DNA of 64,000 bases from Laetmonice hystrix (taxonomy: Eukaryota), in the NCBI GenBank assembly GCA_965235115.1, contig OZ249440.1:7440001-7504000 (forward strand). Reading direction: 5' to 3'. Position numbers: made by a program. Shown piece after piece: positions 23,201 to 59,200 of the stretch (position 1 is the stretch's first letter; every line of letters starts with the position of its first letter).

Positions 23201-26200
23201 AAAGGTAAATGCAGCCTTTCCAATATAACATTTGAGTGGTGTCCTTTATTTTTCAACTCCACATATAATTGCCAATTACCGTAATGTCCTCATATGACTG
23301 ACAGGTCACTCTTGCATGTAGAAATCCTGCATGTACAACTCTTGCATGTACTAATGCACATATTCGGTCATTTCACGAACGTTTTGTTTTTCACTTTTTT
23401 ATGGAAATATTGAACGTCCGAGATCAGCGGTACTTAACGCACCACTGGATTAGATTATTTCAAGTCTATAGAACACAGTGTGTGCCAAACCTGTTCATCA
23501 CTAAGAGATATAAACTTATTATTTGAGCCAACAGTCGACAGTACCACTACTACCGGTACTAAAACCCTGGGGTGCCATGCATGAGTAGTTTCAGCAGAAT
23601 CAAAGCAATTTTTTGTTCAGGGTCTAGTACCAAATATATTTTCCATAGGAAACAAAAGTCCATTTCATGAAAAGATTGGAAGCACCAAAGGAATGCACCG
23701 GGCAAGTCTGCACATTTCTTGTCTGTGAGTATAGCTTTTCATGTTAGCACCAAAACTGTGCCAATATTTTTGCCCTTCATAAAGCGCCCAACCAAATATG
23801 AAGGTACTGCGTAAGCAATCCGATTATTTCTGTCTTCCCACCCCTCAATCTACATCTATATTGACCATATTATAACCTGATTCGTTCCAGCTACCGGTGA
23901 AAGGCTAAAGAGTTTATTTCAGGCAAGTTTCTGGTACACCATTATCTTTTACTCTGGCAATTTAGTATTTGGTTAATAACTCGAAATATAATACAATACT
24001 CATAGTCCCCTCCCTGGTGCAGTGGCCAACTGTCGCAACAAGACGTAATGCCAATCAACAATTGAAGAAAGTCAAAGCGTTTGCTTCAACTGATTATGTC
24101 TGATGTCGCAAATACAGAGCTCTAATATTTTAATATTCCTCCTTTACGCCCCACGCCACTTGCGTTTCGAATCGTCATTTTGTGATAAGTCAGTGACCAA
24201 GCTTCTAGCGGCCATATTATAACTCTACTGTTCCCTGGACTGTTCCTTTTATGTCAAGCCTGAGATCTGTGATCGTACTAGCTGATTATTTTGATAAATT
24301 ACTGCTCTCTACATCGGAAAGGTCCTGCAAGGAACAATACTTGGACCGGGCGCCTTGTCAGGACGCAGGCAGCCCCGTATCTGTTGACACCTGTTGAAAT
24401 CCTACGGCAACCCTTGACCTAAGTGAACTCGATAACCAAAATTGTAGGTCACTTCCTGTCGGCTAACTTCACAAACAGAGATGTATAACTGATTCACAAA
24501 CTACTGGCCGTTGAGAATTATGAGGAGTGAACCTTTTTCTGTATAATATAAGAAATTCTTCATAGAAATCTCAGCTAGATGAGGAGTATGCATCAGTATC
24601 CATAGACACTGTATACAAAAGACAGTACAGTATGTATCAGGTCGATTTTTTTTCAACCCTACAGGTTGTGCATAAAATTTGTTGGAGACTCAAAACTAAC
24701 TGTATAACTCCAATGTGGCCATACAAAAGGGTAAAAAATACCCAGGCATAATCCCCCGAAAAAAATACCCCTGATGGCTTTTCACTTGGTACAGTTTTAT
24801 AGAGTGTGAGCTTGCCAACACTATTATAACATGATAGGTCAACTTACTATAGCGTTGTGCTTTAAAAAATAGATCACTTCTATCTAAACTGAAACGTTTA
24901 CGGCAATATTGTATTTCATTTACAACAGTGACCAAGATATTTCACCTACTGCTTCTAAGCCGTGTTTCATTTTGCAATTTTAAAGGAGCATTTTCTAAAA
25001 CCTGGTGGGGGCACACATACCTCACAACCAAAATTTTACAACAGACCTTGTCTTTTAAGTTACATGATCCAAACCGTATACCCACAAAACATGAACTAAG
25101 TAAAAATAGACTAATTTGTTTTCGGTAGTCTAGGGTTCAGGTGGTGGTCACCTGAAGGCTTGGGCCAGAATAATCAATCATTTGGCAACAAAGTGACCAT
25201 GTCCGTTTTTTACCTGAACAAATTCTGACATGCACTTCACTCTGCAAAGCCACTATCATTTTAATGGGTTTTTTTTAGGTCATATGTCTTTAGTTCTTAA
25301 AAGACAGGGCCTGGTGGTTTCTCAACTAAAAGATCTGTGCTAACTGGCAAGCAAGCATTCACACAAGAGTTACTCACAAGTGTATAGATCAATGAGTAAA
25401 ACGGGAGTTTTCTCCACAGTGATACACATTTCTTTCTACATTTGTACCGGGTGCATCATAAATCACTTTTCTATGTTTCAACGGCATGTAAACCTCACGC
25501 ATTCAACTGTGTTTCTTAATTACATCTTTATACACCAACATTAGGTACCGGTAATATTATTTTACACGGTGTTTTCATAAATCAAAACACATTCCTTGTT
25601 AATGCTAGAGGTCCACATCCATTGGATCACCAATCCTTCGTATTCCTAACCCGATCATCAGAAAAGGTCGTCCATTTCTTAACAGTGCAAAATAAACACT
25701 GACAACATGTCTTTGCCTATATATAAAAAGATGGAGGAAATAATTCCACACTTGTCCACCAGGTGGTATACTTTCACCAATTTGATGGAGACAGGGCATT
25801 CAAATCTCTGAATGACATCTTTCTCTTTCCATCACCACCTTCGACCATTGCTTTTGCTGCATCGGTGATTCCCAACCCACCGGACGAACCTGGTGCTGAG
25901 AGCCCCCCTGCAGTGGCGCCACCTAGTCCGATTGACGCAGACGGCTGATCCTCGCCCGTTTCATTGATTGTTTCTGTACTTGGCATGAAGCGTTTGCTGC
26001 TCAGCCAGTTGAGCAGCATTGAGTTCGGGGCACCACCACTAGCCTGGTTCTGGAGGTTCTCCAGTTCCTTGGTGCTCACCGCCCCCACCGATCTCCTCCT
26101 GTTGGTGGGCAATACTGGAGGAGCCTCCATGATGTCATCTGACACGGAGGACGCCGCGGCGGTCGGCGCCTCGGCAGGTGGATTGTAAGTGTCTGTTTCA

Positions 26201-56200: not shown

Positions 56201-59200
56201 TAGCATTTGCACTGCCAAGTTGGCATAATCTCTTTTAAACCCCGGTAAATAGATTTGATTGAGTAATATGATGTAGGTGCTACCTAGAGGGCGAGCGCAG
56301 CGACGGGAGGCCTACAATATCATACTATAACAATATACAATGTCAGGACTGGTCACTTAGCAGCACGGACGTCGAGATATTGTGGCGTCACAGTGAACAA
56401 ACACTCACGCGACTGTTTGTTCACTGTGACGTCACAAATCACACACGCGCTGCAAGGGTCACATGACCCTCCATGGATTTCTCCATGGATTTGCTCCATG
56501 GTTTTTCCGGTTCCGGTTTTACGTGACGAAATTTTTTGGTGAGACGGTATGTGTCACCTTGGCTACCGTTTCACACGTGTTGTCATAGAGCTCGCTTCGC
56601 GAGCCGCTGCGCGGCTCGCTTGCGCTCGCTATTATTATTTAAAATTGTTCGTCACATTCACTGCAATGACCAATCATGTCAGGTAGGTAGGTCCTCCTCA
56701 GGCTAAGGGTAAGGCTCAGGTATAGACATAGTCAGTGCATAACGTCATATGTGTCTCAATTTCTTCTGTTTTTAACCCTTTCAGGGCGAACGATGCCTTG
56801 AGGCATTACCGTGCCAGGGCGGACGATGCCTTGAGGCATTACCGCCCCAGGGCGAACGATGCCTTGACTGGCTTGAGGCACTTTTTTGTCTACTCCGACC
56901 ACTCCACGTAAATCCGGCCCATTGATAGCAAAGATGTCAATCACCCAACTACAATTGTCGAGTAGCTGTACTAACTCCTCCCCCTTACATTTTACATTGA
57001 TTGCTATTGTCTTTTAGACATTTACGTGTCCCAAAATCACGTTTTTCAAGACGAAAATCCAAAATGGCTCGCCCACGTGGGGTGGTGCGCAAAACTGGGT
57101 CAGCCTCTGTGACGACTGTGACTTAACAAACGTCGCTGGCATAGGGTTAAATGATGAATTTTTTGGTTTTTGCCTGGTTTTCCTTGGGAAACGGAAAATC
57201 ACAGTGGTTTTTAGATAGTGAATTAGTGTATGTTTAGTCTGCGCTATTTCTACATTATTTGACCATACTCGTCTTCCGTAACAACTGGCCATTTATAGGT
57301 CTACGGTTAGGGTTGGGATAGCACATATTTATGATATTCTGCATGCCCACCGTCAAATAGCACTGCTAAATTAAACTGCATGTATTTGATTTCTTAACTT
57401 CTTTTTTTCAGGATACAAGGCAGTGCAATGGTCCCATGGAAGTGCTACATGACCTGAACCATCAGGCAAGAGAAAAGATCCAAGCACTTAGGGGAAAAAT
57501 TGAAGTGTGTATCATTAATATTGATGAGCATTAATATTAAAGAACATTATGTTCGATGAAAAATATCAATAGCTATACAGTTAGATAGTACACAGTTAGA
57601 TCTAAATCTATAAAATCTTATTTCTTGCAGCTGGCCTAGCTGGAACTATTGCTTGTACTTGGAGTCTGTTAGACTAATCTAGTATTTATGCTAGTCCAAT
57701 AAAGGTACTAGTTTTTGTACCAATTTTACTATAAGGAGCTCCAGAGACTGGCAAGAGAGCAGGATAAGGAAGTAGACCAAGTTGCACTCCTGAAGCATGC
57801 TGAAAATCACCACAAGCAACTTGTAAGGTGAGTATTGTTCATCATTAATACATTTCAATATTTGTTCTTACTTCACTTATATATTTTCTAAATCTCTCAG
57901 TTGTGCCATTTATCCAGCATAGCCAAATAATGGGATTGACTTGAAGAGTCATTTAATATTAAGTAGCAATACTAAAAATGTTCGTTTCATTGTTACTCTC
58001 TTCCTAAAGCACACAAACTGTCCTGCGGCAAGCAAATGTGGCATGTCAGATGTCAATTGAAAAAGCAGAGAAGGAAAATCTTCTCCATGGCAGTGCTCAG
58101 GCTAGACAAAGGTATTTTCATAGTTAATGATCACTACAAATATTATGTCTTCCAAAAAATAATGAGTTTTTTATCATATAAAATGCGCGATGAATCTTGA
58201 GGTAATTATTGTCACAATAAAGTTTCGATCATGATACAGTGCTGTAAATAGATTTTGTAAACATATTTTACAGAGTCAAGTCCAATAAGGAAAATCTAGC
58301 CAAAACATCAACCTCCATCACGGGTAATTTGATGGGCGTGAGTCGAATGATGGCATCTCAAGTGGAGCAGAGTGAACGGACAATGAACACACTCGGTACG
58401 GTTTAATATTTGAGAATGATAACTTCAAAGCACATTCTGAAACTGACCATGAAACTGAACAATTTGCTGTTTAAAATCCTGCTACCCTTGGTCATGGGCA
58501 TATGGGGACTCTTTGGTTAAAGGGGGCAGAGGGGTTGATTTTATTTTAGAAACAATGATTATTAATACAATCAACTAATTATACCCTTCGTCGGCTTGCA
58601 GTAGGAAGTATAATATCGGAAAGTTACCAGGCTTTGCAGGCTAAGATTTTTCAGCGTTCTGTCAACTTTTCTATGTTTTTTCCCCAACAGTGTCATCATC
58701 CCAGCAAGTGTCAAAAGTCCATGGAGAGTTTGATAGTATGTCGGTTCACATCCAACAGTCACACAAACTACTGACCAAATACAGCCGTCGTGAATGCACT
58801 GACAAACTCCTCATCTTCCTTGCCCTTGTCTTCTTCTTTGCTACTGTTGTCTACATCCTAAAGAAGCGATTGTTCAGTGCGGCAACATGACAGTTCACGT
58901 TTCAATTAGGTTAAATTTATATCTTAATGAAGACCCTAAAAATACATTAAATATACAAATGTATATGTAAACGTTAAGTGCAGTTTAATAATATATGAAG
59001 AATTATGTGATATATACCTGGTTCTTTGCCAGAGTAGGTTCAATTTCTTTGTGAAAAATGGAAATAAACATTTGAAATATTTGCAACTATCATGGTCGAA
59101 GTATTTTTTGATCTGGAATTCTGTTAATTTCTACATTATTTTCTGGCCCTGGTGGGGGGGGGGGGTCATTCAATTTGTTTACTTCTGTACTTCTGCAAGA

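What the first reader, a model, noticed from the sequence alone, without database searches (positions are those of the whole stretch)
25774..58890. Microsynteny matching human 5q35: KIAA1191-like / ARL10 head-to-head, then HIGD2A and BNIP1
Seen: order KIAA1191-like(-) ARL10(+) HIGD2A(-) BNIP1(+) FAHD1(+). Established (recalled): human 5q35.2 has KIAA1191(-) ARL10(+) NOP16(-) HIGD2A(+), with BNIP1 a few Mb away at 5q35.1; FAHD1 is on another chromosome. Inference: an ancestral deuterostome gene block with a retained divergent promoter. NOP16 is absent here and HIGD2A is inverted. Several members are mitochondria-associated, which hints at co-regulation.
Basis: partly seen in the sequence, partly recalled or inferred. 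Interest (0 to 1): 0.65.

Follow-up and report, generated by a model that had tools for sequence, protein, structure and literature searches.

The report
Small invertebrate cluster resembling human 5q35
An invertebrate animal genome carries four small housekeeping genes side by side, two of which are also near neighbours on human chromosome 5, an ordinary remnant of ancient gene order rather than a new kind of system.

Summary
Four of the five gene calls hold, tested exon by exon. They are an ARL9/ARL10-type GTPase (+, 45769-49198), a type-2 HIG1 gene like HIGD2A (-, 54465-55078), BNIP1/Sec20 (+, 55944-58890) and FAHD1 (+, 59669-61315, outside the stated end).

The "KIAA1191-like" call is not confirmed. 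ORF 25774-26340 (-) is a real, conserved, disordered protein with four unnamed relatives, but none matches any Pfam family.

Its start lies 19.4 kb from the ARL start, and another minus-strand gene candidate (38120-42440) lies between them. A retained KIAA1191/ARL10 divergent promoter is therefore not supported. The only tight head-to-head pair is HIGD2A/BNIP1, with 865 bp between start codons.

The ARL gene is co-orthologous to vertebrate ARL9 and ARL10, not to ARL10 alone. No Nop16 domain was found in the window.

The window's phylum could not be fixed, so "deuterostome" is unproven. No other animal genome could be searched for synteny.

The ARL10-HIGD2A neighbourhood shared with vertebrates is probably inherited linkage. 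This is a modest new example of a known phenomenon.

The parts
25774..26340 (-). The ATG at 26340 follows an in-frame stop directly. A splice acceptor about 60 nt upstream implies a 5' non-coding exon further up.
   Evidence: sequence. One relative at 74% identity. Three relatives at E<=0.001 in 1.84 billion representatives. Alignment A2 shows conserved motifs and a conserved C-terminus. No Pfam family at E<=10. AlphaFold2 mean pLDDT 50.4, pTM 0.14.
38120..42440 (-). Terminal exon 38760-38120, inside the 224-codon ORF 38120-38794, with a good acceptor. Possible first exon 42440-42203 (ATG to a GT donor). Both junctions are phase 1.
   Evidence: sequence. No Pfam family, no PDB relative, Atlas best score 0.81. 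Not related to ORF A. The model is inference only.
45769..49198 (+). ARL9/ARL10-type small GTPase. Exons 45769-45924, 48102-48276, 48527-48708 (GC donor), 49043-49198. 222 codons by count.
54465..55078 (-). HIGD2A-type (type 2 HIG1) gene. Exons 55078-54922 and 54661-54465. 117 codons by count.
   Evidence: QRRQ motif definition from PMC7762129.
55079..55943 (.). 865-bp spacer between the divergent HIGD2A and BNIP1 start codons; presumed shared promoter region.
   Evidence: GC 0.405, CpG observed/expected 0.34. Transcription starts are unknown.
55944..58890 (+). BNIP1/Sec20 gene. Exons 55944-56024, 57412-57504, 57736-57827, 58010-58111, 58274-58395, 58691-58890. 229 codons by count.
   Evidence: Sec20 domain in the last two exons. 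Exons 1-4 rest on open frames, matching splice phases and my recall of vertebrate BNIP1.
59669..61315 (+). FAHD1 gene. Exons 59669-59742, 60521-60617, 60824-61315. 220 codons by count.

Best explanation
The window comes from an invertebrate animal whose phylum is not resolved.

Within 15.5 kb (45769-61315) it holds four compact housekeeping genes:
- an N-terminally membrane-anchored ARL9/ARL10-type GTPase (+);
- a type-2 HIG1 gene like HIGD2A (-);
- the ER SNARE BNIP1/Sec20 (+);
- the mitochondrial acylpyruvase FAHD1 (+).

HIGD2A and BNIP1 diverge from an 865-bp spacer that most likely serves as a shared bidirectional promoter.

Upstream lie two unassigned minus-strand genes, ORF A and candidate gene X.

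The ARL10-HIGD2A neighbourhood is shared with vertebrates. There, by recall, NOP16 sits between the two genes and HIGD2A is inverted. BNIP1 lies looser, a few Mb away in human.

This is best read as a leftover of ancestral linkage that slow rearrangement has not yet broken. It does not look like a functional operon-like unit.

Shown: gene identities, order, strands and distances. Inferred: inheritance of the linkage and promoter sharing.
For: Gene identities: Pfam exon by exon.

ARL gene: window exons 2 and 3 fall in a 100/100 clade with invertebrate and vertebrate ARL9+ARL10, apart from ARL2/3. The N-terminal hydrophobic stretch peaks at 1.76 on the Kyte-Doolittle scale and is followed by basic residues. 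There is no Gln at the G3 position. These traits are reported for ARL10 (PMC8358228 and PMC11166204 passages).

HIG gene: exon 2 scores 43.5 bits to HIGD2A against 26.3 to HIGD1A. Exon 1 scores 24.7 against 17.0. The full QRRQ motif is present.

FAHD1: E 1.4e-60 to solved FAHD1.

Distances.

Vertebrate linkage seen in papers:
- arl10 and nop16 in one salmon interval with fgfr4 and nsd1b;
- ARL10 inside a 5q35.2-q35.3 deletion;
- HIGD2A with FAF2 and SNCB on human chromosome 5;
- bnip1 in the NK4 block.

Rough odds, my own arithmetic from recalled map positions: two given genes out of about 20,000 lie within two genes of each other about 2 times in 10,000. With six pairs among four genes, that is about 1 in 1,000.
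Against: No second invertebrate genome could be examined, so inheritance rather than convergence is not shown.

The human gene order is recalled, not computed here.

HIGD2A is inverted and has a different divergent partner in human (NOP16, recalled). FAHD1 is on another human chromosome. The block is therefore loose.

The invertebrate ARL gene is equally orthologous to ARL9, which by recall lies on human chromosome 4.

Transcription starts are unknown, so promoter sharing rests on coding starts only.

The spacer is CpG-poor (observed/expected 0.34).
Confidence: 0.6

Rival explanations
1. ORF A is the KIAA1191 (P33MONOX) orthologue, and it shares a retained divergent promoter with ARL10, so the block matches human 5q35.2 gene for gene.
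For: ORF A is on the strand opposite to ARL and upstream of it. It has a 5' non-coding exon somewhere upstream, so its transcription start could lie far from its ATG. I recall that vertebrate P33MONOX is also largely disordered and ends in a short motif resembling the conserved C-terminus of the ORF A family. That is recall, not a test.
Against: No Pfam family was found at E<=10 for 0 of 9 sequences: ORF A, its four relatives, ORF X and three nearby ORFs. No P33MONOX was found among 300 ORFs at E<=0.01. I cannot confirm that this Pfam copy holds the P33MONOX model, and I could run no positive control.

A scan of all 1.84 billion representatives found only 3 relatives, all of 236-241 aa and unnamed.

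The ATGs are 19.4 kb apart, with candidate gene X between them.
Confidence: 0.12
2. A cluster kept together by selection. The genes stay adjacent because they share regulation as mitochondria-associated genes, through the HIGD2A/BNIP1 spacer and nearby elements.
For: ARL10 sits on the mitochondrial outer membrane and peroxisomes (PMC11166204 passages). HIGD2A assembles complex IV (PMC7762129 passages). FAHD1 is named mitochondrial in the PDB. HIGD2A and BNIP1 are 865 bp apart head to head, and BNIP1 and FAHD1 are 778 bp apart.
Against: There are no expression data. In human the four genes are dispersed over two chromosomes and HIGD2A pairs with another gene (recalled), so no constraint has held them together there. 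BNIP1 is chiefly an ER SNARE. Dense packing of housekeeping genes is common.
Confidence: 0.15
3. Chance. ARL10 and HIGD2A came to lie together independently in this lineage and in vertebrates.
For: Orientation differs. A gene intervenes in human (recalled). The other members do not match. Only one pair is really shared.
Against: The rough odds of one near-adjacent pair among four genes are about 1 in 1,000. This is my arithmetic on recalled positions. A third gene, BNIP1, is on the same human chromosome arm.
Confidence: 0.13

Closest known systems
Human 5q35.2 segment KIAA1191 / ARL10 / NOP16 / HIGD2A, with BNIP1 at 5q35.1 (order recalled; part support)
   Same: An ARL10-type gene and an HIGD2A-type gene are near neighbours. 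A BNIP1 gene is linked.
   Different: No NOP16 was detected here. HIGD2A is on the other strand and pairs head to head with BNIP1. FAHD1 is added. The KIAA1191 identity of the upstream ORF is not shown. The ARL gene predates the ARL9/ARL10 split.
Arl10 group of the ARF family (Vargova et al. 2021, PMC8358228; Quirion et al. 2024, PMC11166204; passages read)
   Same: Arf GTPase domain, N-terminal transmembrane stretch followed by basic residues, no G3 glutamine, place in the tree.
   Different: A single invertebrate gene that is co-orthologous to both vertebrate paralogues. Its localisation is untested.
Type 2 HIG1 proteins (HIGD2A, yeast Rcf1; Timon-Gomez et al. 2020, PMC7762129, passages read)
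   Same: HIG_1_N domain and the full QRRQ motif. Closest solved relative is HIGD2A.
   Different: 117 codons by count against the 106-residue HIGD2A chain in the PDB. The difference lies in a longer C-terminal tail. No phylogeny was made.
Ancient conserved microsynteny and bidirectional gene pairs in animals (general knowledge, recalled)
   Same: Unrelated housekeeping genes kept side by side over long times. A divergent pair under 1 kb apart.
   Different: Only one pair is shared with vertebrates, and no regulatory element or developmental gene is involved.

Membership tests
Arl10 group (ARL9/ARL10) | Arf-family GTPase domain | tested here: met
   PF00025 in exon 2 (44 bits) and exon 3 (58.2 bits), cut-off 22.3.
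Arl10 group (ARL9/ARL10) | Falls inside the ARL9+ARL10 clade, apart from ARL2/3 | tested here: met
   Exon 2 and exon 3, as separate rows, lie in a 31-row clade with 100/100 support. Vertebrate ARL9+ARL10 form one sub-clade with 100/98 support. Other ARL groups were not in the tree.
Arl10 group (ARL9/ARL10) | N-terminal transmembrane region followed by basic residues, no myristoylated Gly2 (PMC8358228, PMC11166204) | tested here: met
   Exon 1 starts M-A-A. The 19-residue hydropathy peak is 1.76 at residues 15-33, followed by R, K, H and R. This is a prediction only.
Arl10 group (ARL9/ARL10) | No conserved glutamine in the G3 motif (PMC11166204) | tested here: met
   Alanine stands at that position across the exon 2/3 junction.
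Arl10 group (ARL9/ARL10) | Mitochondrial or peroxisomal localisation | not testable with these tools
   Needs cell biology.
HIGD type 2 (HIGD2A/Rcf1) | HIG_1_N domain | tested here: met
   67.2 bits, cut-off 22.4.
HIGD type 2 (HIGD2A/Rcf1) | Full QRRQ motif (Q/I)X3(R/H)XRX3Q (PMC7762129) | tested here: met
   Exon 2 reads Q-KMM-R-L-R-VGA-Q.
HIGD type 2 (HIGD2A/Rcf1) | Closer to HIGD2A than to HIGD1A/1B | tested here: met
   Exon 2: 43.5 against 26.3 and 15.3 bits. Exon 1: 24.7 against 17.0 and 13.8 bits. Solved structures only; no tree.
BNIP1/Sec20 | Sec20 domain ending in a C-terminal membrane anchor | tested here: met
   Last exon 61.9 bits, cut-off 27, profile positions 32-92. Exon 5 covers positions 2-32 at 23.9 bits. 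The hydrophobic tail was seen in the translation.
BNIP1/Sec20 | N-terminal region like that of animal BNIP1 | not tested
   No named BNIP1 sequence was in hand. Exons 1-4 rest on frames, splice phases and recall.
FAHD1 | FAA_hydrolase domain, with FAHD1 as the closest characterised relative | tested here: met
   177.3 bits. The top 3 of 24 PDB sequences are FAHD1, E 1.4e-60 to 1.2e-58.
FAHD1 | Orthology to FAHD1 rather than FAHD2 | not tested
   No FAHD2 appeared among the PDB hits. The length of 220 codons fits FAHD1 (chain of 224 residues).
KIAA1191 / P33MONOX | Match to the Pfam P33MONOX model (name and accession recalled) | tested here: not met
   0 of 9 sequences at E<=10. 0 of 300 ORFs at E<=0.01. 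No positive control was possible.
KIAA1191 / P33MONOX | Detectable similarity to a vertebrate KIAA1191 protein | not testable with these tools
   No such sequence was returned by any search.
Bidirectional (divergent) gene pair | Opposite strands with starts under about 1 kb apart | tested here: met
   HIGD2A/BNIP1: 865 bp between ATGs. Transcription starts are unknown.
Bidirectional (divergent) gene pair | The same, for ORF A / ARL | tested here: not met
   19.4 kb between ATGs. Candidate gene X lies between them, 3.3 kb from the ARL ATG.
Conserved microsynteny block | The same neighbours in several distant lineages | not testable with these tools
   The only genome collection open here holds bacteria and archaea. 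The vertebrate side rests on recall.

The most novel reading that the evidence does not exclude
ARL9/10, HIGD2A, BNIP1 and FAHD1 form a bilaterian-old cluster of genes acting at or with mitochondria. It is held together by shared promoters: HIGD2A and BNIP1 use one bidirectional promoter. In vertebrates the cluster was partly broken, and NOP16 took BNIP1's place as HIGD2A's divergent partner. ORF A or gene X would then be the long-missed invertebrate form of KIAA1191, which would extend a vertebrate-only family to invertebrates.
Probability: 0.1. Interest if true: 0.5.

Novelty: new member of a known kind. Interest (0 to 1): 0.25.

Why it matters
If the ARL10-HIGD2A pair proves adjacent across phyla, it adds one small block to the catalogue of ancient animal microsynteny.

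It would also link the barely studied mitochondrial GTPase ARL10 with a complex IV assembly factor. That is a lead for co-expression work.

The HIGD2A/BNIP1 spacer is a compact candidate bidirectional promoter that could be tested directly.

As it stands, the finding is mainly a correct annotation with one unsupported gene name.

Tried and rejected
ORF A:
- The ESM Atlas gave a best score of 0.80, a lead only.
- A PDB profile search with alignment A2 gave one hit at E 0.85.
- The AlphaFold2 model is too poor (pLDDT 50.4), so I ran no fold search.

ORF X:
- Atlas best score 0.81.
- No PDB hit at E<=1.
- No relation to ORF A: BLASTP E 1.5; hhalign probability 0.3%, E 0.2.

Other exons of the ORF A family: tblastn of its four relatives matched only ORF A. 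All other hits had E>0.4.

BNIP1 last exon against the PDB: 0 hits.

Rfam at gathering scores: 0 matches. tRNA scan: 0 genes.

Taxon: the summed exon scores run Saccoglossus 202, Owenia 196, Liolophura 185 and echinoderms 133-174 bits. The tree leaves the invertebrate rows unresolved. I did not assign a phylum.

Names for ORF A's relatives: none of the 4 members read carries a name. I did not pursue their origin.

Literature: no paper holds 'bidirectional promoter' with HIGD2A or 'microsynten' with ARL10. None of the 5 papers holding two of HIGD2A, BNIP1 and synteny deals with this block.
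Full report
Scope and rules. The window has no N. Nothing in it or in the fetched proteins was taken for human. The ARL exons are at most 52% identical to the vertebrate proteins compared. All spliced models were handled exon by exon. I never joined exons into one protein, and the lengths I give are sums of codon counts. This leaves open what full-length searches and trees would add.

What is there. Stop-to-stop ORFs and Pfam scans of single ORFs give the following.
- Arf domain in 48003-48326 and 48487-48747 (+).
- HIG_1_N in 54468-54704 (-).
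- Sec20 in 58645-58887 (+, 61.9 bits) and weakly in 58248-58403 (23.9 bits, under the cut-off of 27).
- FAA_hydrolase in 60471-60644 and 60767-61312 (+).
- A retroelement RNase H plus integrase ORF at 11553-13889 (+).

I then made a bulk scan. Of 335 ORFs of 55 aa or more, I dropped 30 that lie in two minisatellites or in second copies of exact duplications. Of the 305 kept, 300 were scanned. The last five, at 63054-64000, were not scanned. The scan found only these same families, plus one weak Zn_SUZ12 hit at E 0.0081. There is no Nop16 domain. Short exons would be missed.

Gene models, by eye from the sequence.
- ARL: 45769-45924, 48102-48276, 48527-48708, 49043-49198. The third intron has a GC donor.
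- HIG: 55078-54922 and 54661-54465.
- BNIP1: 55944-56024, 57412-57504, 57736-57827, 58010-58111, 58274-58395, 58691-58890. All splice phases are consistent.
- FAHD1: 59669-59742, 60521-60617, 60824-61315.

BNIP1 exons 1-4 have no tool-based homology support. They rest on frames, splice phases and my recall of vertebrate BNIP1.

The ARL gene. A search with exon 2 found 6 proteins at E<=0.001 among 102 candidates: five echinoderm and one sponge, at 54-64% identity. All four window exons align in order with these 223-241 aa proteins.

A search with the sea urchin protein P0004 gave 587 hits at E<=1e-5 among 4019 candidates, of which 120 were listed. From these I took 38 named rows and left out unnamed and redundant rows. 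I added window exons 2 and 3 as separate rows.

The tree puts both exons in a 31-row clade with 100/100 support. That clade holds the invertebrate proteins and vertebrate ARL9 and ARL10, and stands apart from ARL2/3. Vertebrate ARL9+ARL10 are one sub-clade with 100/98 support. Exon 3 has a long branch and sits with a chiton row. The invertebrate part of the clade is unresolved.

This agrees with passages of PMC8358228. Arl10 arose in the metazoan stem, was duplicated in vertebrates into Arl9 and Arl10, and has an N-terminal transmembrane region.

The window protein has that hydrophobic stretch followed by basic residues. It also lacks the G3 glutamine. Human ARL10 is reported likewise, and its transmembrane region plus the adjacent polybasic residues target it to mitochondria (PMC11166204 passages). 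The correct name is therefore ARL9/10 co-orthologue.

The HIG gene. Against solved structures, exon 2 scores 43.5 bits to HIGD2A, 26.3 to HIGD1A and 15.3 to HIGD1B (7 sequences at E<=1). Exon 1 scores 24.7, 17.0 and 13.8 bits. Exon 2 carries the full QRRQ motif that defines type 2 HIG1 proteins (PMC7762129 passages). I made no tree.

FAHD1. The top three of 24 PDB sequences are FAHD1, E 1.4e-60 to 1.2e-58. FAHD2 was not available for comparison.

The 'KIAA1191-like' ORF. ORF A (25774-26340, minus strand) starts with an ATG right after an in-frame stop. A splice acceptor lies about 60 nt upstream.

It has one close relative, P0001, at 74% identity. The scan of all 1.84 billion representatives found 3 proteins at E<=0.001: P0001, P0122 and P0123. 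P0124 came from a cluster look-up. All are unnamed.

The alignment shows conserved motifs and a conserved C-terminal end, so the gene is real. None of these sequences, nor ORF X, nor three neighbouring ORFs, matches any Pfam family convincingly at E<=10. The model is mostly disordered (pLDDT 50.4).

I recall that vertebrate P33MONOX ends in a similar short motif. That is recall only. KIAA1191 membership is therefore tested and not met with Pfam, and otherwise stays open.

Head-to-head claim. ORF A's ATG (26340) is 19.4 kb from the ARL ATG (45769). Between them lies a 224-codon minus-strand ORF (38120-38794) with a good acceptor at 38761/38760. An ATG-started ORF (42440-42203) ends at a GT donor in the matching phase.

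If these two form one gene ('gene X'), its ATG is 3.3 kb from ARL's. Gene X, not ORF A, would then be ARL's divergent neighbour. Gene X has no detectable relatives with the tools that remained. It shows no significant likeness to ORF A.

The only tight divergent pair is HIGD2A/BNIP1, 865 bp between ATGs. BNIP1 and FAHD1 follow in tandem, 778 bp apart. ARL and HIGD2A lie tail to tail, 5.27 kb apart.

Comparison with human. The human order KIAA1191(-) ARL10(+) NOP16(-) HIGD2A(+) at 5q35.2, BNIP1 at 5q35.1 and FAHD1 at 16p13.3 is recalled. Papers give part support.
- ARL10 lies in a 1.86-Mb 5q35.2-q35.3 deletion (PMC9629404 passage). By the search listing, that paper's text also holds KIAA1191, HIGD2A and CLTB.
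- arl10 and nop16 share a salmon interval with fgfr4 and nsd1b (PMC8102513 table passage).
- HIGD2A, FAF2 and SNCB lie near DDX41 on human chromosome 5 and zebrafish chromosome 14 (PMC6005158 passage).
- bnip1 is part of the vertebrate NK4 microsynteny (PMC12019251 figure legend).

One near-adjacent pair among four genes has rough odds of about 1 in 1,000 by chance. This is my arithmetic on recalled positions. Inherited linkage is therefore the better reading for ARL10-HIGD2A. BNIP1 on the same chromosome arm fits looser, chromosome-scale conservation. FAHD1 does not match.

Limits. The phylum is not resolved, so 'deuterostome' is unproven. The block, if inherited, may be older. No animal genome collection was open, so linkage in outgroups is untested. 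Supplements were closed. I found no paper on this block.

Verdict. This is a correct and useful annotation of four genes and a plausible small remnant of ancestral gene order. It carries one unsupported gene name and one unsupported promoter claim. It is ordinary in kind and low to moderate in interest.

Noticed in passing
window 38120-38794 and 42203-42440, minus strand: A 224-codon ORF with a good splice acceptor, and an ATG-started ORF ending at a GT donor in the matching phase. Together they may form an unannotated two-exon gene of about 290 codons, 3.3 kb from the ARL start. No relatives were found.
   Followed up: partly
window 45745-45754 and 33403-33412: The 10-base palindrome GTCACGTGAC (an E-box core) occurs twice, against 0.02 expected. 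One copy ends 14 bp before the ARL start codon.
   Followed up: partly
window 50302-52053 and 52061-53812: Two copies of 1752 bp, identical base for base and 7 bp apart, in the ARL-HIGD2A spacer. This is either a very recent tandem duplication or an assembly artefact.
   Followed up: partly
window 10733-16195: A retroelement fragment. An ORF with RNase H and integrase domains but no reverse transcriptase domain found (11553-13889), flanked by 963-bp exact direct repeats at 10733-11695 and 15233-16195.
   Followed up: partly
window 9187-9870 and about 16540-18570: Two minisatellites: a 57-bp unit in about 12 copies, and a 42-43-bp unit over about 2 kb with strong GC skew (0.587). Both give long spurious ORFs.
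   Followed up: no
window 48709: The third intron of the ARL gene appears to use a GC-AG splice site (donor GCAAGT). The reading frame and the conserved G4 motif require it.
   Followed up: no
window 55713-55745: Two ETS-like CCGGAAG / GGAAGCCGGA motifs about 200-230 bp before the BNIP1 start codon, in the HIGD2A/BNIP1 spacer. Not tested against chance.
   Followed up: no
proteins P0004, P0008-P0012, P0015: The echinoderm and hemichordate orthologues of this ARL gene carry the public name 'ADP-ribosylation factor-like protein 3'. The tree places them with ARL9/ARL10, so the public names look wrong.
   Followed up: yes
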